Virus record (IMG/VR): IMGVR_UViG_3300045738_001212
Span: 64,001 to 128,000 of that record
Length of the DNA: 64,000 bases
Origin: a virus
Strand: one strand, 5' to 3'
The notes under the pieces are model-generated. The model had not been told where the DNA came from. It did no database searches and saw nothing but the letters and a program-made list of their open reading frames with translations. Positions 11,780 through 36,170 of this stretch are shown one piece after another. Position 1 is the first letter of the stretch. Each line of letters starts with the position of its first letter. The translations under genes and the position numbers were made by a program.

Positions 11780-12160
11780 TTATATTGTATGGGCGATTAA
11801 ACTCGATGGCGTTTGAATTGGTGTTGTCATCCTCTTTAACTATTACTTCTTTTAAAACCACCAGCGATGAAGGAATCTTCCCTTGGGATATCAAATAAAG
11901 AAACACTGATTGAAATGTCGCTAAAAATAGCAAAAAACAAACTAATACCCTTAAGTTCCTAACTTTTTTCCTTAGCTCTTCCACAGTCTTGTTTCGATTT
12001 AATACATACGTCTAAACTGTTCATAGCATTCCTAAGATATAAGCTCTCACTCTTGGAATGCTTACCCACCTCCACTATTCTCTCAATTTTGGAATAAACC
12101 TTTTCCAACGCTGGAAGGTGTACCTTTTGTCCTCTAATCATAACAAGTGGTAGTAACCAA

Positions 12161-12242
12161 TGTCGTAATCCTCTGTATTTAGAATCAATAAATTTGCAGT
12201 ATATTGATAGCTACTCCAGTGGTGTCGCATGTCGTAATCCTC
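12161..12242 (-). CRISPR. mini-array D: 2 copies of the 13-nt repeat
   Basis: TGTCGTAATCCTC at 12161 and 12230 (+ strand), intergenic. Confidence 0.7.
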
Positions 12243-12486: not shown

Positions 12487-12579
12487 AAAATTTAAGCGCG
12501 AGAGACAGAGCAGAAAGGTATTAACGACCCCGCCTCTCGCAAGTGTAGTTCCGCGTGACACTTCCCTACACTAAATTAA

Positions 12580-12745
12580 TGGGTGAGAGGATTCTCATTT
12601 ACCTCTATCGTTTCGGAGTCACAGCTTGAGTTTCAGTGAGAAACCCTACTTTGAACCAGCCCTTGTAAGCCCCCAGAGACGGTAATCTCCTGCAAACAAG
12701 CCCTGTACCTTAACTGCCGCGACAGCAGTTTATTCGGTCACACCC
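12580..12745 (-). ncRNA. structured ncRNA candidate with tRNA-like ends
   Basis: intergenic; 5' GGGTG pairs with 3' CACCC-A; T-arm-like AGAGG..AATCCTCT hairpin; internal hairpins. Confidence 0.6.
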
Positions 12746-12774
12746 TTCGCTGGCGATCAACCAGCAAAATTATT

Positions 12775-13107
12775 TTAAAGAACAAATATTTTAGAATCTT
12801 CTATGAAGACTCTGGGGTGATATTGATCAATATCTTTCCCGTCTTTTACATTTACAAATTTTCTTTTTTTGTTTACCCGCACTTGATGTTTCCATTTGGG
12901 GCGAGAAGACTTCTTTTCCTCTAGGGAACGAATGTCGCCCAAGTCTACGCAACCCGTAAGAGTTCGCTTGGTGATAGCGACATCCCCCATGTGCAAAGCG
13001 TGTGTGCGCTTAAGCACTACAGGTTTGTCGCCGTATGCGTGTGCTCGCTTACTGCCCTTAACCTCTAGGCACTTCTTCTTTGAATTGTAAATTACTACTA
13101 CTTGCAC
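12775..13107 (-). CDS. hypothetical basic protein
   Basis: GGAG RBS, GTG start. Confidence 0.55.
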   Translation of the reverse strand: MQVVVIYNSKKKCLEVKGSKRAHAYGDKPVVLKRTHALHMGDVAITKRTLTGCVDLGDIRSLEEKKSSRPKWKHQVRVNKKRKFVNVKDGKDIDQYHPRVFIEDSKIFVL

Positions 13108-13124: not shown

Positions 13125-13171
13125 TGTCGTAATCCTCTATAAATCGGTTAAGGGGTATTGTTGTAATCCTT
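13125..13171 (-). CRISPR. mini-array C: 2 repeats, 21-nt spacer
   Basis: TGTCGTAATCCTC at 13125 and TGTTGTAATCCTT at 13159, intergenic. Confidence 0.75.
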
Positions 13172-13662
13172 CAATTAACTCGCCAACTTGACCCTGCCAA
13201 GCCTTGATCCTCGTAATCGCTCTCTGATAAATACTGCTGAACTTCCTCATCGGAAGCGAAAAGCATATTCTTCTCATCAATGTAAAAAATACTTTTGTGG
13301 TAAGCCATCTTGCGAATTACGCCTCCATGAAAGCCTACTCCGCTATCTTCCTTACCGTGAACGCAGGTTATTTTAACTACGTTAGCTGCGTCACTCATAT
13401 ATTTGGCGCATAAGCCCAGCCCTTTCACTTTATAAATCCTGCCTCTGACGGGCTCATGGACGCTTTCGAACGCGCTCTTGATTTCTTCAATATCCTTATC
13501 AACACCATCATCCAGCCAATCGTCCTCATCATCTCCGTACTTCCAAGCTCCTTCAACCCCCTTGGTTCCTTCGTGGCCTACTGGACAGGAATGCTCCTTG
13601 GGCTGCTCTTCCGGCTTGTCCTCGTAAAAAACTTCAATTCCTAAAAGATGAGACTTTTTCAT
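13171..13662 (-). CDS. hypothetical acidic protein
   Basis: ORF translationally coupled to the ECF sigma gene. Confidence 0.55.
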   Translation of the reverse strand: MKKSHLLGIEVFYEDKPEEQPKEHSCPVGHEGTKGVEGAWKYGDDEDDWLDDGVDKDIEEIKSAFESVHEPVRGRIYKVKGLGLCAKYMSDAANVVKITCVHGKEDSGVGFHGGVIRKMAYHKSIFYIDEKNMLFASDEEVQQYLSESDYEDQGLAGSSWRVN

Positions 13663-14303
13663 AACAGATTTCTATTTTTTATTATCTTCCTTGCTCTTCG
13701 TCTAGCGTAAAATACCCTGCTCATAATCGTTCCTATCGAGCACTTCATTATTTTAGCAGCTTCGGCATAAGATTTTTCTTCTTCTATCACTAGCTCAATA
13801 ACCCTTTTTTGTTCGGGGTTCAGGCTCCCTTTTATCTGCGCCAAAACCTTCTTAAAGTGCTCAAAGCTTTCTTTCTCTTCAAGTCGGTTGCTGGGGCTTT
13901 CATCGTTAAGTAAGAGTATACCAGAACCTTGTAAGAAGTCAAGAGGATTTTTATCATTTTCTAAACAAAAATCTGCACAAAAATCTGAATAGGAAATCTC
14001 CTTAGATTTACGTCTTTTGTCCTGCCTGTAGAAATCATAGAAAGAATTGCGCCCAACCCTGAAAAACCACGTAGCAAAGGCACTTTTGAACTTAAAGGTC
14101 TTTATCCTCCTCCAAGATTTTACGCATGTAAGCTGCAAGATGTCTTTCGCGTCGGCTTCAGATACCCCCATTTTGAACAAAGAAGAGCGCACTAGGGCAC
14201 TATGACGCCCAAGAAGAACCTCGAATGCCTCCTTGCTACCTCTTTGACTCTTCTTTACTAAAGCTTCGTCTTTGAGGTTGGAAAGTTGAACTTTTTTGCT
14301 CAA
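13659..14303 (-). CDS. ECF (RpoE-like) sigma factor
   Basis: AFEVL, DILQ, F.TWFFRV..N, SYAEAAKIMKCSIGTIMSRVFYAR. Confidence 0.92.
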   Translation of the reverse strand: MSKKVQLSNLKDEALVKKSQRGSKEAFEVLLGRHSALVRSSLFKMGVSEADAKDILQLTCVKSWRRIKTFKFKSAFATWFFRVGRNSFYDFYRQDKRRKSKEISYSDFCADFCLENDKNPLDFLQGSGILLLNDESPSNRLEEKESFEHFKKVLAQIKGSLNPEQKRVIELVIEEEKSYAEAAKIMKCSIGTIMSRVFYARRRARKIIKNRNLL

Positions 14304-14324: not shown

Positions 14325-14556
14325 TGTTGTAATCCTCTATACCGATTGGAAGTACTATGTTGTGATCCTCTCAAATACTGGAACAACTCAAATGTTCTAA
14401 TCCTCTGTGCTTCTTTCATTCGGTGGTGTCGTAATCCTCACGCTTATCAAACGAGATGTCGTAATCCCCTTACTTGATACTAGGCTGTGCATAGTTCATC
14501 CCATGTTCTAATCCTCATCCTAATCCTAATCGATTTCGTGGTGTGTCGCAACCCTA
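14325..14556 (-). CRISPR. array B: 7 degenerate 13-nt repeats directly 3' of the tmRNA
   Basis: repeats at 14325, 14358, 14393, 14427, 14457, 14504, 14544 with unique 17-34-nt spacers. Confidence 0.85.
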
Positions 14557-14561
14557 AAAAA

Positions 14562-15020
14562 TGGTGGAGGCGGCGGGAATCGAACCCGCGTCTTTGGAGC
14601 CATCGGCTCAAATATACTACAAGCTTAATCAGTGCCATGTTCCTCGTATATAGCAGGTCACTGATTAAACCAACCGGGCCGCTCAAAGAGCGACTGGGAC
14701 TAACGTAAAACGTTAGACGCCTACACGAGTTTGAAGTCACATTTTATACTAGCGTTACAACCGCCCTAGTTTTTTGCTCGCTATCGACGCCCTAGCTCCT
14801 TAACGAGCATCCAGAGTAGGACGGGGCAGAACTTAAGCTGCCAGCGTGGCCTCTTCGGCCCAACCGAAACGAGCGAGAATCTCGTCTGCTTCAGCCAGAG
14901 AAGGAGCCATGTCAATATTACTATTGGCATATATGTTTTTAATGGAAGTTTTAAGAGGCCAACCATCATCCTCTGCTTGCAATCTGGCGTAAGATTCCAA
15001 ATCGAATCCAGTACGCCCCC
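14562..15020 (-). ncRNA. ssrA: tmRNA
   Basis: 5' GGGGGCGTACTGGATTCGA, 3' GGGTTCGATTCCCGCCGCCTCCACCA with G3-U pair; tag ORF 14833-14928 ANSN...ATLAA. Confidence 0.95.
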
Positions 15021-15902: not shown

Positions 15903-16094
15903 CTATTCCCCAGCCCACTCTTCTTGTATTACGTGGTCTATTAAGCCCTCTATCCAGTCATTAAACGTATCTTGATCGAAGTCAGTCTCCCCCGTTTCCG
16001 CCCTGTACATGTCGAGAAACTCTTCATCCACCTCCATGAGGAGTTCTCTCTTGTTGCCCTTCACTTCTAGTTCTCTTATTACTTTTATTTTCAT
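15903..16094 (-). CDS. small acidic hypothetical protein
   Basis: AGGAG RBS, ORF tiled. Confidence 0.5.
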   Translation of the reverse strand: MKIKVIRELEVKGNKRELLMEVDEEFLDMYRAETGETDFDQDTFNDWIEGLIDHVIQEEWAGE

Positions 16095-16263
16095 TAATAG
16101 CTCCTATTTTAGCCAGAAGTTCGTCTATCAAATCAAGCTGAGACATTGCGTAGACGAATCTCGTTCTGCTTAGATTGCTACCATGAGGGCTATATTTGTG
16201 CAACTCTTTTGTTCGTAGTTTTTTCCTTTTTTCAAGGATTTCTATAATCTTGTGTTTATCCAT
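16024..16263 (-). CDS. hypothetical protein immediately downstream of array A
   Basis: start moved to MDKHK at 16263 because the longer ORF runs into the array. Confidence 0.5.
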   Translation of the reverse strand: MDKHKIIEILEKRKKLRTKELHKYSPHGSNLSRTRFVYAMSQLDLIDELLAKIGAINENKSNKRTRSEGQQERTPHGGG

Positions 16264-16272
16264 ATACTCGTA

Positions 16273-16894
16273 TGTCGTAATCCTCTTAATATCGTCGGGA
16301 CGAAGCATGTCGCAATCCTCTTGTGCAGTCCAACCATATTTGTGTTCTAATCCTCTTAAAATCAGACTATGCGTACCCTGCGTGTTCTAATCCTCTTAAA
16401 ATATACAGGAGCAATCATGTTGCAATCCTCACTCTTAAAAGTTCACTACGGCGTGCTGTGTTGTAATCCTCTTTAAATCGCAAGCTGCTCATGTGTTATA
16501 ATCCTCTTGGTCCAAAGTATGACTGATGTTGTAATCCTCTTATACTTAAATTCGGTTACATGAGGTGCGTGTTGTAATCCTCGCTGGTTTTGTTGGTAAT
16601 GTTTTAATCCTCTTATACTTAAAAAACGCGCACAGCTTGAAATGTTTTAATCCTCTCAAATTTTACCACGATACTCCATGTTGTAATCCTCTCATGCTAA
16701 AATTACTTCTTCTGTTGTCGTAATCCTCTTTAACAGCCGTCGCAATGTTTTAATCCTCATACTTAAACTGTGCAGATTGACTCCCTGTGTTGTAATCCTC
16801 TTATACTTAAATTAGGATAAATCCGAATTATGTTTTAATCCTCTTACTTAAATTGTCAAATTCAGTCATCAGTAGGGTAAGTGTTTCAATCCTC
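16273..16894 (-). CRISPR. array A: 17 degenerate 13-nt repeats (minus-strand consensus GAGGATTACAACA) with unique spacers
   Basis: repeats start (+ strand) at 16273, 16308, 16343, 16383, 16418, 16459, 16494, 16527, 16570, 16600, 16643, 16679, 16716, 16746, 16788, 16831, 16882; period 30-51 nt; the first copy reads GAGGATTGAAAC. Confidence 0.9.
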
Positions 16895-17137
16895 TTATGC
16901 TTGTTGATTCCTTATTTGCCTTATGGCTCTACGATGCATCCTCATGTGCTGGGGGTGAGCTTCGCACTCGCCATCAATTAATTCCATATCACATATCTCG
17001 CATTTAGGCTCGTTTAAGTCAGTCGAATGGTGTGTTTCACGGTAATGTTGTAATCCTAAATCTTCTGCTGTCGAAGGAAACTTGCAGTTAGCCCTTTCGA
17101 GTTCAAGAATAGTTATGTTTCTTTCTTCTTCAGTCAT
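16895..17137 (-). CDS. 80-aa protein with CxxC-x8-CxxH putative Zn finger, between nuclease and array
   Basis: start overlaps the nuclease stop (ATGACTGA); its TAA abuts repeat 1 of array A. Confidence 0.6.
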   Translation of the reverse strand: MTEEERNITILELERANCKFPSTAEDLGLQHYRETHHSTDLNEPKCEICDMELIDGECEAHPQHMRMHRRAIRQIRNQQA

Positions 17138-18608
17138 TCTTACCTCCCAGCACGTAATTCTTAATGTTCATCGCCGCCAGCTTGTCGCGGTCATTCACCA
17201 CTCCACACTCAGGACACTCCCACACGCGCTGTGAGAGCTTTAAATCGTTGTAGATGTACCCACAGCCACACTTTTTAGATGTAGGCTCAAAACGGTCAAT
17301 TCTGATCATGTGTTTACCCGAGTGGTCGGCCTTATATTGGAACTTCGTGAAGAAGCTCCCCCAAGCAACGTCACTGATTCGGCGACTCATACCTCGCTGC
17401 TGGGCTCGACCATTGCGCTTATATTTTCCGTCCTTACCCTTTATGGGAGCTTTCTTTTCCTTCATTTGGGCAATGTTCAAATCCTCAACCGCAAAAGCAT
17501 TGAAGGGCATGTCTACTAGCGATCTGCTAAGTTCATGAGTGAAGTCGTCTCTCTTGTTTTTAATAGCCTCATCGATCTTCGCGCAAACCAGTCTTTGCTT
17601 ATTGTAGTTCTTACTCTTGAACTCCTTTCTAGCGAGCCGCCTTTGTCGAATTTTCTTTCGACGCAAGAGTCTTTGGTCGGTTTTGTACGGAGATAGCTTA
17701 TCGTCCGAGTATTCAAGCCCGAACTTGTCTAGGAAAACAGAGTTCTCAATTTTCGATTCGTCTGAAAGAGTTATGTAGTTTTTAATCCCTACGTCAATCC
17801 CAACAGTATTGGACTCATCAAATTCTTTCTTCTCTGGCATCGGAACTCCAGTATCCACGGGAATGAATACGTAATATTTATTCGTTGGAGTCCGAGTGAA
17901 AACGCACATGCCGAGTTTGGCCTTTGGGTGCTTCTCCAAAAACTCTTGCATGTTGATGTGCTGCTTAAACTTAATCCAAGTTTTGCACAGGGGCAGCTTG
18001 AATCGATTTTTTTCCCACTCCCATTTCATTTGGTTCGCTTCGCAATCAAAGTATTGGTTGTCCATCCAACTTCTAAAACGGGGGAATCCTTTATTTGGTT
18101 TTTTTGCAAAGTCTTTTTTGCTCTTCCAAAAGCCCTTAACTCTACGCTTTTTAAAACCCTCCCTATATGAAACTGCCAGCCTTTTGTATTGCCCTCCGAC
18201 AAGCCTACTCGGTGTTTCTTTTATCCAGTTGTATTCTTTGTCGTCGCCCTTTCTAAGCTTACGAAAATCTTTATCGGCCTGAGCAATGTCCAGCAACGGA
18301 AACCCAGAACATCTAATCTCTTTCTGGACTGCCTTATGTTCGTCTGACTTCTCTTCGTATACCCCGTCAGCAAGGTCTTTTTTCATTTTATCCTTAAGGT
18401 CTTGAAGATGTTTTTCGCCCCCAGACTTTTTCCATTCCTCGGTTCGTTCGTTTCTGGTATCCCAGTTTTTGGTTTGTCGGTCTACTTGCCAATTCCAATA
18501 CTTGCGGGCAGCGGCGAAGCTTTTGCTGAGAAAGTGGGTGCCGTCTTTATTTGTGTCAATTCGGTATTTTATGGCGATGACGATATTCTTAAGTTCTTTT
18601 TTGTCCAT
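17130..18608 (-). CDS. tnpB: TnpB/Cas12f-like RNA-guided RuvC endonuclease
   Basis: RuvC-I VGIDVG, RuvC-II AVEDL, Zn ribbon CGCG...CPEC, RuvC-III DRDKLAAMNI; GFPRFR motif; 492 aa. Confidence 0.92.
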   Translation of the reverse strand: MDKKELKNIVIAIKYRIDTNKDGTHFLSKSFAAARKYWNWQVDRQTKNWDTRNERTEEWKKSGGEKHLQDLKDKMKKDLADGVYEEKSDEHKAVQKEIRCSGFPLLDIAQADKDFRKLRKGDDKEYNWIKETPSRLVGGQYKRLAVSYREGFKKRRVKGFWKSKKDFAKKPNKGFPRFRSWMDNQYFDCEANQMKWEWEKNRFKLPLCKTWIKFKQHINMQEFLEKHPKAKLGMCVFTRTPTNKYYVFIPVDTGVPMPEKKEFDESNTVGIDVGIKNYITLSDESKIENSVFLDKFGLEYSDDKLSPYKTDQRLLRRKKIRQRRLARKEFKSKNYNKQRLVCAKIDEAIKNKRDDFTHELSRSLVDMPFNAFAVEDLNIAQMKEKKAPIKGKDGKYKRNGRAQQRGMSRRISDVAWGSFFTKFQYKADHSGKHMIRIDRFEPTSKKCGCGYIYNDLKLSQRVWECPECGVVNDRDKLAAMNIKNYVLGGKND

Positions 18609-18621
18609 AATTATAATCCTT

Positions 18622-18788
18622 ATTAAGTTTGGGGGTGGGAGGGAGGATTATTTCACTCCCACCCCCGAGGATTTTGTTGCCCCGAAAGCGACCCTTATGT
18701 AGACGAGCTATATAAGAAATCTTAATCTCTCGTATCTGACAACCGTAACTTCCCGTCCAACCGACGGTAGAGTTCGTATCAGCGAACT
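18622..18788 (-). ncRNA. tracr/scout-like structured RNA (5' leader of the nuclease gene)
   Basis: several hairpins plus anti-repeat segments AATCCTC (18667-18673), TAATCCTC (18643-18650) and GTTGT (18739-18743). Confidence 0.6.
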
Positions 18789-18794
18789 ATGAAG

Positions 18795-18822
18795 AGTATA
18801 CCTGAAACTGTTTTGAAGTCAA
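18795..18822 (-). promoter_or_regulatory. sigma70-type promoter for leader RNA, nuclease and array A
   Basis: TTGACT-16-TATACT. Confidence 0.75.
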
Positions 18823-34420: not shown

Positions 34421-34495
34421 TGGTAGCCCGTAGGGGAATCGAACCCCTCTCTCAGCCTTGAAAGGGCCGTGTCCTGTCCGCTAGACGAACGGGCC
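34421..34495 (-). tRNA. tRNA-Glu(TTC)
   Basis: cloverleaf, TTCGA T-loop, encoded CCA. Confidence 0.92.
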
Positions 34496-34497
34496 AA

Positions 34498-34573
34498 TGG
34501 TGGAGGTAATCGGACTTGAACCGATGACATCCTGCTTGCAAAGCAGGTGCTCTCCCAACTGAGCTATACCCCC
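34498..34573 (-). tRNA. tRNA-Ala(TGC)
   Basis: cloverleaf, encoded CCA. Confidence 0.95.
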
Positions 34574-34575
34574 AC

Positions 34576-34651
34576 TGGAGCCGAAGACCGGACTCGAACC
34601 GATAACCTGTGGTTTACAAAACCACTGCTCTGCCATTGAAGCTACTTCGGC
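34576..34651 (-). tRNA. tRNA-Thr(TGT)
   Basis: cloverleaf, encoded CCA. Confidence 0.93.
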
Positions 34652-34725
34652 GTCAAACCACCAGCCACACTTCGGGTACTTTCTCACGCGACAAGAGTTA
34701 CTTTAAACTTTCGCTATGTCAAAAC

Positions 34726-34746
34726 AAAAACCCCGCCGAAGCGGGG
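34726..34746 (-). terminator. intrinsic terminator
   Basis: CCCCGC-TTCG-GCGGGG followed by TTTTT. Confidence 0.8.
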
Positions 34747-34836
34747 TCTGGGTTAAGACGCCGATTAGCTAGTCCGGTCTTTCCTTGCCGCAACAAGGAC
34801 GTGCAAGCTCACACTACGTCTGGGGAAAAATGCTTT

Positions 34837-35109
34837 TTACAGCCACTTCCACCTGTCTTTTAGGTCCAGCAATAAACGGACGACCCCAACTAAGAGAGCC
34901 CCCCAAGCGATTACAGTCCAAGGCACAATGGATGGACATAACATAGCCAAGCCAAAGAGCACAAGCCCTATGGACCAAAGCGTATGAGTATTCCATTCGA
35001 GCCAGTTCAGTAAACCTTCTCCCCAGCCCTTGAGTTTGTCCCAGTACCTTCTCAAAATAGAGGGTTTCTGAGCCTTTTTTCTAGTTTTTCTTTTCTTTGT
35101 CGTTTTCAT
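34837..35109 (-). CDS. small membrane protein
   Basis: basic N-terminus, two TM helices, GGAGG RBS. Confidence 0.6.
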   Translation of the reverse strand: MKTTKKRKTRKKAQKPSILRRYWDKLKGWGEGLLNWLEWNTHTLWSIGLVLFGLAMLCPSIVPWTVIAWGALLVGVVRLLLDLKDRWKWL

Positions 35110-35355
35110 GATAAAATACCTCCCGTCAAAGGAGGCTCATTTAATTACACTAAAAAAGTGTAATACTTTACGTGAACCTCACGATAAATTCATATCCTGT
35201 GGTCTTTCAGCCCGATCTAGACAACGGCTTTTGGATGCAGGAGAAGATCATAATTCATGATTCCCAAGGCTCCTTGGGTGAATCAGGGATTAGGTTGATT
35301 ATCCAATACCTATACGATGAGGGCTTCATACTAGACAGAAGAGCTCCTTATGAAG

Positions 35356-35430
35356 TGGTACGAGCGGAAGGGATCGAACCTCCGACAAGCACGGTGTAAA
35401 CGTGCCGCTCTACCTCTGAGCTACGCTCGC
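35356..35430 (-). tRNA. tRNA-Val(TAC)
   Basis: cloverleaf, encoded CCA. Confidence 0.93.
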
Positions 35431-35456
35431 AAAAAAAAAGGCCCGATAAACGGGCC
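35431..35456 (-). terminator. intrinsic terminator-like hairpin
   Basis: GGCCCG-TTTAT-CGGGCC followed by T9. Confidence 0.65.
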
Positions 35457-35468
35457 AGCCCTCTCGGG

Positions 35469-35753
35469 CTACTCCTTCTCTCGCGTGGGAAGAGCGGGTT
35501 GCTCTCCTTGAGATTCGGTAGCCGCTGGGGTCTGTGGAGTTGCCTTTAGGGACAGCGGCGTTGTTGACGCTGATGACTCCGTAAGACTATCAATTTGAGC
35601 TTGAGTGGCCTGAGTCATATTAAGGACTACGTAGCCAGTGAGACAAAAGTTAAGAGCTAGGAGAACTATAGCGGCTCTCGCGTAAACGGTCTTAACTGTT
35701 GTGAACTTGTTGCCGCCGCTAGTGCTGCAACTTTCTGTGTTTGTTGTTGTCAT
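35469..35753 (-). CDS. single-TM hypothetical protein
   Basis: ORF; start moved to MTTTN. Confidence 0.5.
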   Translation of the reverse strand: MTTTNTESCSTSGGNKFTTVKTVYARAAIVLLALNFCLTGYVVLNMTQATQAQIDSLTESSASTTPLSLKATPQTPAATESQGEQPALPTREKE

Positions 35754-36016
35754 GGTTTTTTTTGTTCTACGACGACTGGTCGCAAAGTCTTGTACTTCCA
35801 AATATCCGGGTTCTCCTCTCTTTTCCTCCTCATGTAGTCGCGCTTCTGCTGACGCCTTCTTTCGGGGTCTCTCGAATCATACGCTTTCCTTGCTTTCTGT
35901 AAAGCTTTTTTTCCTTTTATTGTTTTAAAATATTTTTTAGTAGCTCCACTCATGATATATCGTCCACCATGTTTCTTTTTCTTCGTTCGGTTAAAATTTT
36001 ATTTTTTTAATAACGG

Positions 36017-36090
36017 CAGGAGAGGTGGGACTCGAACCCACAACCCTCGGTTTAGAAGACCGATGCTCTATCCAATTGAGCTACTCCCCC
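36017..36090 (-). tRNA. tRNA-Arg(TCT)
   Basis: cloverleaf; followed by CCG rather than CCA. Confidence 0.9.
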
Positions 36091-36096
36091 TAAACT

Positions 36097-36170
36097 TGGA
36101 GCGAGCGAAGGGGATCGAACCCTCATCAAGAGCTTGGAAGGCTCCCGCACTACCGTTGTGCTACACTCGC
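36097..36170 (-). tRNA. tRNA-Gly(TCC)
   Basis: cloverleaf, encoded CCA. Confidence 0.92.

What the first reader, a model, noticed from the sequence alone, without database searches (positions are those of the whole stretch)
16273..16894. Array A architecture: fixed 13-nt core, eroding 11-nt extension and ~17-20-nt guides
Periods vary from 30 to 51 nt, but much of the variation comes from a variably deleted extension. On the + strand TTATACTTAAA follows the core in full at 16527, 16600 and 16788, partly at 16746, 16831 and 16418, is reduced to TTAAA at 16343, 16383 and 16459, and is absent at 16570. Removing it leaves mostly 17-20 unique nt (e.g. TTCGGTTACATGAGGTGCG, CTGTGCAGATTGACTCCCTG), the guide length used by TnpB/Cas12f. 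On the coding strand 15 of the 16 spacers begin with a pyrimidine after the invariant A. Inference: an ancestral 24-nt or longer repeat (TTTAAGTATAAGAGGATTACAACA) is being minimised, and spacers are not added by precise Cas1-Cas2 repeat duplication.
Basis: partly seen in the sequence, partly recalled or inferred. Interest (0 to 1): 0.8.

Follow-up and report, generated by a model that had tools for sequence, protein, structure and literature searches.

The report
Phage arrays of 13+17-nt modules
A marine phage carries stacks of a short module (a fixed 13-base tag, 17 unique bases, then an A/T-rich linker) that looks like a guide-RNA array beside a TnpB nuclease, but the same module also sits just in front of ordinary genes and is inherited and shuffled like a regulatory cassette, so its role is still open.

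Summary
Array A (16273-16894, minus strand) holds 17 copies of GAGGATTANAACA spaced 30-51 nt apart. I refine the unit to a 13-nt core, a G-free next base, 17 nt of unique sequence with normal GC, then an A/T-rich linker of 0-40 nt.

The CRISPR-like reading is not supported as written.
- The module is not specific to this locus. The 158-kb phage has about 46 co-oriented copies in five or more clusters, and 55 related marine contigs carry over 300.
- Copies next to genes sit 16-22 nt upstream of real start codons, for example the sigma-factor gene in several relatives.
- Every spacer match is a homologous unit in a relative's array. Units diverge by point mutation, duplicate in tandem, drop out and change order.
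- No protospacer, Cas1 or Nop protein was found.
- TnpB relatives carry 17, 6-7, 3, 1 or 0 units at this locus.

Some evidence keeps a TnpB link alive.
- The 17/18 boundary is sharp.
- One array has its own promoter.
- A conserved structured RNA lies 5' of tnpB. It has an invariant AAUCCUC and ends, in relatives, with a core-like sequence plus variable bases.

My best reading (about 0.45) is an RNA-level leader or boundary module. A split TnpB guide system stands at about 0.22. Earlier first-reader notes from this scan cover the same genome, and none had been followed up.

The parts
16273..16894 (-). Array A. It has 17 modules, each a core GAGGATTANAACA followed by 17 unique nt and an A/T-rich linker (0-13 nt here, consensus AATTTAAGTATAA, usually ending TAA or TGA).
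   Evidence: Its RNA folds no better than shuffled sequence (z = +0.94).
16895..17137 (-). 80-aa Cys-rich ORF between tnpB and the array. Its TAA stop abuts the first core.
   Evidence: It is conserved as a protein in L125 (83 aa) and L130 (64 aa), with 15-18 synonymous-only codon differences per pair and indels in multiples of 3. It is absent in L131. It has no Pfam or PHROG hit.
17046..17058 (-). Core-like copy TAGGATTACAACA inside the 80-aa ORF, within an indel-prone segment.
   Evidence: In L125 it is duplicated in frame as a 33-nt unit. The segment is absent in L130.
17130..18608 (-). TnpB-family RNA-guided nuclease gene (492 aa) with its RuvC triad and zinc ribbon intact.
   Evidence: Pfam HTH_OrfB_IS605, OrfB_IS605 and Cas12f1-like_TNB. 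The closest solved structures are ISDra2 TnpB 8H1J/8EXA at E about 6e-22. D272, E375 and D475 are invariant in 11 homologues. It is the only copy in the genome.
18618..18800 (-). Conserved structured RNA 5' of tnpB. It contains hairpin CCGUC-GGUUG-GACGG, a long stem, a single-stranded AAAAUCCUC, and a GC-rich terminal hairpin with loop UGAAAUAAUCCUCC. It is followed by AAGGATTATAATTATG, which is tnpB's ribosome-binding site and start.
   Evidence: It shares 77-81% nucleotide identity with L125, L128 and L131. Of 45 predicted pairs, 9 show compensatory changes. It holds the only UAAUCCUC on minus-strand RNA in the genome.
18795..18822 (-). Sigma-70-type promoter TTGACT-16-TATACT driving the 5' RNA and tnpB.
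   Evidence: It is conserved in L125.
16024..16308 (-). 94-aa ORF immediately 3' of the array. Its ATG overlaps the final A of core 16, so that core acts as an SD-N7-ATG initiation region.
14325..14516 (-). Array B, with 6 modules. The last one is the conserved leader of the sigma-factor gene (GAGGATTACAACAttcgccgtagct...).
   Evidence: The same leader is found in L125, L128, L145, L151 and L173.
13659..14303 (-). Phage sigma-70-family factor gene (regions 2 and 4). Its start lies 21 nt after a core.
13125..13137 (-). Gene-proximal core, 17 nt upstream of the GTG start of ORF 12775-13107. A second core lies at 13159-13171.
   Evidence: The orthologous arrangement is seen in L125, L128 and L146.
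12161..12173 (-). Gene-proximal core, 19 nt upstream of the ATG of ORF 11959-12141. A second core lies at 12230-12242.

Best explanation
Array A is a stack of a lineage-specific module that acts on the transcript. The module is a 13-nt tag (often preceded by a stop codon, then GAGGAUUA-N-RACA and a non-G base) followed by 17 nt of unique sequence. In single copy it forms the 30-31-nt stretch between the stop of one small early-region gene and the start codon of the next. In arrays it is repeated without ORFs, with the units joined by A/T-rich linkers.

I infer that a factor recognises the whole 13-nt tag on unstructured RNA and then occupies, or measures off, about 17-18 nt downstream. That would set the 5' boundary or leader of the following cistron, in a phage that already makes many leaderless mRNAs. 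The ORF-less arrays would then act as multi-site platforms or decoys for that factor.

Shown: the anatomy, the strand bias, the position relative to start codons, transcription of one array from its own promoter (by sequence), the lack of RNA structure, and the mode of evolution (duplication, unit loss, reshuffling, point mutation). Inferred: that it acts on RNA rather than DNA, the identity of the factor, and the measured-distance mechanism.
For: (1) The logo of 74 copies shows one block, A-GAGGATTA-N-R-ACA-H, with nothing else conserved from -40 to +40.
(2) About 46 copies at up to 1 mismatch lie only on the minus strand of a 40-kb block of minus-strand genes. All 55 related contigs are strand-pure.
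(3) Where an ORF follows a terminal copy, its start is 16-22 nt after the core in 16 of 39 cases. In 4 cases the start overlaps the core, so the core is the true SD. The same 8-mer (G/A)AGGATTA is the real SD of other genes, including tnpB.
(4) A stop codon abuts the 5' edge of the core in 183 of 334 copies.
(5) The spacer ccggagaatcacactt in L125 and L136 is the leader of a cupin gene in L128. The last spacer of array B is the sigma-gene leader in five relatives.
(6) Array C has a TTGACT-17-TATACT promoter whose predicted start falls on the first core, and this is conserved in L117, L122, L141, L164 and L182.
(7) The arrays fold less well than shuffled sequence, with z = +0.94 and +1.98.
(8) Units are inherited and shuffled. 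A4, A6, A9, A11, A13, A14 and A15 recur in relatives in a different order, L176 has an exact tandem duplicate, and single units are present or absent among L141, L164 and L182.
(9) The phage has at least 20 leaderless early genes of the form TTGACA-17-TAnAnT, 5-7 nt, ATG.
(10) The 17-nt segment keeps GC 0.40-0.57 while the linkers sit at about 0.2. The segment is therefore not drifting neutrally.
Against: No factor has been identified: there are no CsrA, RegA or RegB Pfam matches in the genome. Array C has no ORF downstream, so a pure 'leader' role does not explain it. A unique 17-nt segment under selection behind a constant tag is also exactly what a guide RNA looks like. The largest array lies next to the only RNA-guided nuclease gene. 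Many terminal copies (53 of 92) have no ORF start within 60 nt under my crude ORF rule.
Confidence: 0.45

Rival explanations
1. A split TnpB guide system. The conserved structured RNA 5' of tnpB would be a tracr-like scaffold and the 13-nt core a minimal crRNA-like handle. GAGGAUU would pair with the scaffold's invariant AAUCCUC, RAC could pair with the GGUUG hairpin loop as a pseudoknot, and the final A would stay unpaired as in ISDra2 omega-RNA. The 17 nt after the handle would be the guide, and arrays scattered through the early region would feed one nuclease.
For: Handle-then-guide polarity and a guide of 16-17 nt match TnpB: ISDra2 has a 16-nt crRNA-like region, a 16-nt guide, a 3-bp pseudoknot at -5 to -3 and an unpaired -1A (PMC10097598). 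There is a hard 17-nt lower bound and a sharp GC drop at 17/18. The largest array lies 240 nt downstream of tnpB, and L136/L194 also show a tnpB 3' end followed by 6-7 units. The catalytic triad is intact. The 5' RNA is conserved with compensatory changes, and both AAAAUCCUC and the loop UAAUCCUCC are invariant. In L125, L128 and L131 this RNA ends with AAGGATT(A/C)(C/A)GAC followed by variable sequence before the tnpB ATG (20-28 nt in L125 and L131, about 190 nt in L128). No conserved RNA lies 3' of tnpB, where omega-RNA normally sits. Core position 9 varies only A/G, which fits pairing with U. Array C has its own promoter.
Against: No protospacer was found anywhere. Spacers are inherited, duplicated and reshuffled among relatives. 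More than 12 different genes start directly after core+17-18 nt, which a guide model does not predict. Six of 200 spacers are 9-14 nt. TnpB orthologues with the same 5' RNA carry 0-3 units at this locus. Complementarity to the scaffold is only 7-8 nt, has no covariation support, and equally fits sequestration of tnpB's own SD, AAGGAUUAU. Known TnpB-derived arrays have 32-38-bp repeats (bioRxiv 10.64898/2026.03.27.714800).
Confidence: 0.22
2. A DNA-level promoter or activator box. The core would be bound by the phage sigma factor or an activator at -31 to -19 of leaderless transcription units, which would fix its distance to the ATG. Arrays would be clusters of boxes without a functional -10 element, acting as sinks or regulatory stacks.
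For: The fixed 17-19-nt distance to start codons occurs in a phage whose early genes are demonstrably leaderless. A phage sigma-70-family gene is itself preceded by the box in every relative examined. Several gene-proximal copies have TAGnnn 5 nt before the ATG, which is the geometry of the early -10 elements. The information profile is bipartite, GAGGATTA plus AACA, about one helical turn apart.
Against: No -35 or -10 block is conserved around the core. The core's position does not fit sigma-70 or ECF spacing, by my own geometry check on the sequences. Array-internal units lack the TAG element. Seventeen promoters 35-43 bp apart would overlap RNA polymerase footprints. The predicted start of array C's sigma-70 promoter falls on the first core, which suggests the core is read as RNA.
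Confidence: 0.12
3. A Shine-Dalgarno decoy or sponge RNA. Arrays would be unstructured RNAs carrying many SD-like GAGG sites without start codons. They would hold 30S subunits or a CsrA-like SD-binding protein, biasing translation toward the phage's leaderless mRNAs or feeding ribosomes to the next gene.
For: GAGGA followed by 7 nt and an A is a bona fide initiation region, and it is used as such at 16308 and elsewhere. The arrays are unstructured. A unit of 13+17 nt is about one ribosome footprint (inference). Array C is transcribed from a strong promoter and has no ORF. The phage has many leaderless early genes.
Against: Pairing with the anti-SD explains only GAGG, not the invariant AUUA-N-RACA. 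There is no 3-nt periodicity in unit lengths and no consistent mini-ORFs. No CsrA homologue is encoded. The host is unknown.
Confidence: 0.08
4. Non-functional recombination scars. The core would be a boundary sequence at which gene cassettes are exchanged, and the arrays would be leftovers of repeated cassette loss.
For: Units and leaders are shared between different arrays and in different orders. The array locus varies from 0 to 17 units among relatives, with genes such as Methyltransf_21 or a cupin in its place.
Against: The core is almost invariant in over 300 copies while flanking sequence diverges freely. The 17-nt segment keeps a non-neutral composition and a hard minimum length. Array C's dedicated promoter is conserved.
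Confidence: 0.06

Closest known systems
PeSL (promoter-early stem-loop) regulatory cassettes of T4-like phages (PMC2839356, PMC4122927)
   Same: Both are short conserved regulatory sequences repeated at the boundaries of small variable genes in hyperplastic early regions. Both are co-oriented with transcription and serve as points of homologous exchange that shuffle modules between related phages.
   Different: PeSLs are composite promoter-plus-terminator-hairpin motifs. This element is a single 13-nt block with no hairpin (z > 0) and no promoter hexamers. It is followed by a length-defined 17-nt unique segment and forms ORF-less arrays of up to 17 units.
Type V CRISPR, TranC and omega-RNA arrays derived from TnpB (PMC10691335; bioRxiv 10.64898/2026.03.27.714800; PMC10097598)
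   Same: Both have a constant 5' handle followed by a variable segment of about 16-17 nt, lie downstream of and co-oriented with a TnpB-family nuclease, lack adaptation genes (as in many V-F and V-U systems), and plausibly arose by serial duplication.
   Different: The repeat here is 13 nt (24 at most), against 32-38 bp or more than 60 bp. Spacing is irregular. No target was found. Units are shared and reshuffled among relatives. The same unit precedes ordinary genes. Arrays lie up to 38 kb from tnpB. The candidate scaffold RNA lies 5' of tnpB rather than 3'.
CsrB/RsmZ-type protein-sponge RNAs
   Same: Both are promoter-driven noncoding RNAs made of many imperfect repeats of an SD-like GGA motif spaced about 17-40 nt apart. 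The motif also occurs in the 5' leaders of regulated genes.
   Different: CsrB motifs sit in hairpin loops and only about 5-7 nt are conserved. Here the RNA is unstructured, 13 nt are near-invariant, and no CsrA homologue is encoded. The arrays were found in no bacterial genome.
TIGR-Tas tandem interspaced guide RNA arrays (PMC12045711)
   Same: Both are phage-borne arrays with very short repeats and a period of about 36 nt.
   Different: TIGR arrays have two alternating 8-12-nt repeats, two 9-nt spacers, strict regularity and an adjacent Nop-domain protein. Here there is one repeat, one 17-nt segment and irregular linkers, and no Nop protein.

Membership tests
CRISPR array (any type) | Regular direct repeats of about 23-50 nt separated by spacers of similar, near-constant length | tested here: not met
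   The conserved block is 13-15 nt. Inter-core distances range from 9 to 98 nt. Tandem Repeats Finder reports no array here.
CRISPR array (any type) | Spacers derived from foreign DNA (protospacer matches with a shared flank), and turnover of spacers between strains | tested here: not met
   No protospacers were found. Every match is a homologous unit preceded by the core. Units are inherited with point mutations. The databases lack the unknown host, so absence of matches is weak evidence.
CRISPR array (any type) | Adaptation genes (Cas1/Cas2) nearby; optional for many type V variants | tested here: not met
   There is no Cas1 match in the 158-kb genome.
TnpB omega-RNA / TranC-type split guide | A TnpB-family effector with an intact RuvC adjacent to and co-oriented with the guide locus | tested here: met
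   tnpB ends 240 nt upstream of the first unit.
TnpB omega-RNA / TranC-type split guide | A scaffold or tracr RNA whose anti-repeat pairs with the repeat, supported by covariation | tested here: inconclusive
   A conserved structured RNA 5' of tnpB carries an invariant AAUCCUC twice, giving 7-8 nt of complementarity. Both partners are invariant in all four lineages, so there is no covariation. The proposed GUUGU half is inside a covarying stem.
TnpB omega-RNA / TranC-type split guide | Conserved association of effector and array across relatives | tested here: not met
   Orthologues at 78%, 65% and 58% identity have 3, 1 and 0 units at this locus. Most arrays lie on contigs without tnpB, though those contigs are short.
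TnpB omega-RNA / TranC-type split guide | RNA-guided cleavage of matching DNA next to a TAM | not testable with these tools
   This needs biochemistry or a plasmid-depletion assay.
TIGR-Tas | Two alternating 8-12-nt repeats with 9-nt spacers, a 36-nt unit, and an adjacent Nop-domain Tas protein | tested here: not met
   There is a single repeat block and no second conserved block. No Nop domain is present in the genome. The definition is from PMC12045711.
PeSL regulatory cassette | A composite early promoter plus terminator stem-loop at gene boundaries in hyperplastic regions | tested here: not met
   No hairpin and no conserved promoter hexamers surround the core. The boundary position and the shuffling role are shared.
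CsrB/RsmZ-type sponge RNA | GGA motifs presented in hairpin loops, together with a cognate CsrA/RsmA protein | tested here: not met
   The arrays are less structured than shuffled sequence. There is no CsrA match in the phage. Whether the host has CsrA is unknown.

The most novel reading that the evidence does not exclude
This marine phage lineage may run a distributed, Cas1-free guide library for a nuclease-active TnpB. A structured RNA encoded 5' of tnpB would serve as a tracr-like scaffold. About 45 minimal 13-nt handles per genome, some in promoter-driven arrays and some wedged directly in front of genes, would each present a 17-nt guide. That would be a living example of the omega-RNA-splitting step between TnpB and Cas12, with the shortest repeat known, and it evolves by duplication and mutation rather than by spacer acquisition.
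Probability: 0.2. Interest if true: 0.92.

Novelty: new variant of a known kind. Interest (0 to 1): 0.6.

Why it matters
If the module is a leader or boundary element read by a sequence-specific factor with a measured 17-18-nt reach, it would be a new way for a large phage to organise expression of its fast-changing early genes, and possibly to generate leaderless messages. It would also be a new substrate for modular gene shuffling.

If instead the units are TnpB guides, the locus would capture the transposon-to-CRISPR transition in a minimal form and offer a very compact handle for guide design.

Either way, the 13+17+linker grammar is now defined on more than 300 copies in 56 related sequences. 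Simple tests can follow from that: small-RNA and 5'-end sequencing, TnpB pull-down, and reporter mutagenesis.

Tried and rejected
- Mini-ORF array: only 3 of 17 units have ATG at the core's final A, unit lengths show no 3-nt periodicity, and frames are inconsistent. Rejected.
- Replication iterons or a centromere: spacing is not helically phased, copies precede ordinary genes, and there are five dispersed clusters. Rejected.
- TIGR array: rejected.
- Rfam: no family covers the array or the tnpB leader at E up to 5; only tmRNA and manA RNA were found nearby.
- Omega-RNA 3' of tnpB: the downstream 240 nt is a conserved protein-coding ORF that is absent in L131, and no conserved RNA is present.
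- ECF-type -35 (xxAAC) or sigma-70 geometry for the core: the spacing to the ATG does not fit (reasoning).
- A single-copy 15-nt pattern scan of IMG/VR gave only chance hits.
- A first TnpB peptide scan of IMG/VR found nothing. A scan with an alignment found L200 and L201.
- Whole-record searches of the long ENA and JGI contigs carrying TnpB homologues were not possible, so genome-wide co-occurrence of tnpB and arrays could not be tested.
- Relatives cannot be drawn for a virus record, so host genomes could not be scanned for spacer targets.
- Contigs L144, L152, L154, L169, L170, L180, L185, L188 and L189, and L208-L212, contain the core only inside ordinary tandem repeats or coding repeats. 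I excluded them as unrelated.
- L119 is a genuine CRISPR array in another phage whose repeat happens to end GAGGATTTCAAC. I did not pursue it.

Full report
**Observation.** On the minus strand, which carries all local genes, window 16273-16894 holds 17 copies of GAGGATTANAACA at 30-51-nt intervals. The excess over chance is clear. There are 38 matches at up to 2 mismatches in the window against 7.8 +/- 2.7 in shuffles. The whole record has 26 exact copies, all on the minus strand, and none for a reversed control.

**Context.** The window is bases 64001-128000 of a 158-kb IMG/VR phage record estimated 91% complete. The phage encodes a PolIII-alpha-like polymerase, ribonucleotide reductase, a DnaB-like helicase and a UvsX-like recombinase, and has no close cultured relative. 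Transcription on the minus strand runs through these features in order:
- an IMPDH gene;
- a TTGACT-16-TATACT promoter;
- an untranslated RNA of about 180 nt;
- a 492-aa TnpB-family gene (Pfam OrfB_IS605 and TNB; closest structures ISDra2 TnpB; D272/E375/D475 invariant);
- an overlapping 80-aa Cys-rich ORF;
- array A;
- a 94-aa ORF whose ATG overlaps the 16th core.

Further along lie a staphylococcal-nuclease-like gene, a tmRNA gene (Rfam, 124 bits), array B with 6 units, and a sigma-70-family gene.

**The element is genome-wide and lineage-wide.** At up to 1 mismatch the genome has about 46 copies, all on the minus strand between 42 and 82 kb. They fall into array C (9 copies, genome 42838-43187), a cluster of 5, several pairs, array B, array A, and single copies in front of genes. 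A two-copy pattern scan recovered two IMG/VR fragments and 67 metagenome contigs. By tblastx, 55 of the 84 loci tested (L117-L200) are related to this phage, and all of those are strand-pure. The same pattern gave only five unrelated hits in 185,579 bacterial and archaeal genomes.

**Refined anatomy.** A logo of 74 copies shows a single block, A-GAGGATTA-N-(A/g)-ACA, followed by a base that is almost never G (4 of 334). Nothing else is conserved from -40 to +40. A stop codon abuts the 5' edge in 183 of 334 copies. In 200 distinct inter-core segments there is a hard minimum of 17 nt, with six exceptions of 9-14 nt. GC is 0.40-0.57 at positions 2-17 and drops to 0.32, 0.18 and 0.20 at positions 18-20. 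The unit is therefore 13 + 17 nt plus an A/T-rich linker of variable length, with consensus AATTTAAGTATAA. It does differ by small indels between orthologous units. Because the linker sits at about 20% GC while the 17-mers do not, the 17-mers are under some constraint.

**Evidence against a CRISPR-like guide array.**
1. Spacer searches found only homologous units preceded by the same core. I searched INPHARED, the phage itself and about 200 fetched loci, and ran exact scans of IMG/VR and of bacterial genomes. No protospacer in another context turned up.
2. Units A4, A6, A9, A11, A13, A14 and A15 recur in relatives at 88-100% identity but in other orders and other arrays. L176 carries an exact tandem duplicate of A14. 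L141, L164 and L182 differ by the presence or absence of one of two diverged duplicate units. This is tandem-repeat dynamics with vertical inheritance.
3. The unit is also a gene leader. Where an ORF follows, its start is 16-22 nt after the core in 16 of 39 cases, and in four more the ATG overlaps the core's last A. The sigma-gene leader GAGGATTACAACAttcgccgtagct is conserved in at least five relatives. A spacer in L125 and L136 is the leader of a cupin gene in L128.
4. TnpB orthologues are syntenic, but at this locus they carry 6-7 units (L136), 3 units (78% identity), 1 unit (65%) or none (58%).
5. There is no Cas1 and no Nop-domain protein. The grammar differs from TIGR arrays and from TranC or type V arrays.

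**Evidence that keeps a TnpB link alive.** The 13+17 geometry, the handle-then-guide polarity and an unpaired A before the variable part mirror the crRNA-like 3' end of ISDra2 omega-RNA (PMC10097598). The 240 nt downstream of tnpB, where omega-RNA normally lies, is a conserved protein-coding ORF that is missing in one lineage. By contrast, the 180 nt upstream of tnpB is a conserved structured RNA. It shares 77-81% nucleotide identity with lineages whose TnpB is only 58-78% identical, and 9 of 45 predicted pairs show compensatory changes. It contains an invariant single-stranded AAAAUCCUC and a terminal GC hairpin whose loop reads UGAAAUAAUCCUCC. That is the only UAAUCCUC on minus-strand RNA in the genome, and it is complementary to GAGGAUUA. 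In three relatives this RNA is followed by AAGGATT(A/C)(C/A)GAC and then variable sequence before the tnpB start: 20-28 nt in L125 and L131, and about 190 nt in L128. In this phage the core-like AAGGATTATAATTATG serves directly as tnpB's ribosome-binding site.

These facts fit a tracr-like scaffold. They fit equally well an anti-SD loop that sequesters tnpB's own SD, with tnpB being simply one more gene that carries the module in its leader.

**Level of action.** Array C is preceded by a consensus TTGACT-17-TATACT promoter whose predicted start falls on its first, degenerate core (GTGGATTACAACA). This arrangement is conserved in five relatives and is followed by a separate promoter-sRNA-terminator unit. 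Arrays A and C fold less stably than shuffled sequence (z = +0.94 and +1.98). The core contains a real SD (GAGG) at the right distance from its final A and is used as an SD at several genes. Even so, the invariance of all 13 positions points to recognition by a specific partner rather than by the ribosome alone. The phage also has at least 20 early genes with the ATG 5-7 nt after a -10 hexamer, meaning leaderless mRNAs. That makes a fixed core-to-ATG distance meaningful. It could reflect processing that trims internal cistrons to near-leaderless form, or a promoter-like box.

**Verdict.** I favour an RNA-level module recognised by an unidentified factor with a footprint or reach of about 30 nt (0.45). 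The alternatives are a split TnpB guide system (0.22), a DNA-level box for the phage sigma factor (0.12), an SD decoy (0.08) and non-functional scars (0.06).

Its mechanistic inference is unproven, and by its own refutation test largely fails. The element fits no described family that I could test, and its grammar is defined well enough for decisive experiments.

Noticed in passing
window 18618-18800 (-): A structured RNA of about 180 nt, driven by its own promoter, lies 5' of tnpB. It is more conserved than the TnpB protein and shows compensatory base-pair changes. In L125 and L128 its terminal hairpin is followed by a U-tract, so it may also exist as a separate sRNA. No Rfam family matches it.
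   Followed up: partly
window 14562-15020 (-): A phage-encoded tmRNA gene (Rfam RF00023, 123.9 bits) lies immediately upstream of array B. ARAGORN did not report it.
   Followed up: no
window 12576-12766 (-): A manA RNA motif (Rfam RF01745, 57.3 bits, just above the gathering score) lies between small early-region ORFs.
   Followed up: no
genome 27-40 kb (G000:C1, minus strand; upstream of the window): At least 20 genes have a near-consensus TTGACA-17-TAnAnT promoter only 5-7 nt before the ATG, which means leaderless mRNAs. Many of them begin ATGAAACCTAC.
   Followed up: partly
genome 42700-42830 (G000:C1, minus strand; L003): Directly after array C there is a TTAGAA-17-TATAAT promoter, an RNA of about 70 nt and a GC hairpin with a U-tract. 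The promoter (AAAAAAAATTAGAATAAATTT) is conserved after the homologous array in more than 15 related contigs.
   Followed up: no
window 13659-14303 and 17130-18608; L125-L130: tnpB and a sigma-70/ECF-like sigma gene are conserved neighbours, 3-4 kb apart, in several relatives. PMC10691335 describes an RpoE-linked clade of inactivated TnpB in Bacteroidota. Here the nuclease residues are intact.
   Followed up: partly
L125:4501-4546 (orthologue of window 17046-17058): Inside the small Cys-rich ORF, the core plus 20 nt is duplicated in frame as a 33-nt unit. The whole segment is absent in L130. This shows module-sized duplication acting even within coding sequence.
   Followed up: partly
L119:393-2142: An unrelated 182-kb IMG/VR phage contig carries a genuine CRISPR array with a period of about 73 nt and more than 20 repeats. 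Its repeat ends CCCCTGAGGATTTCAAC, which resembles the core.
   Followed up: no
window 34421-36170 (-): A cluster of six tRNA genes: Glu, Ala, Thr, Val, Arg and Gly.
   Followed up: no
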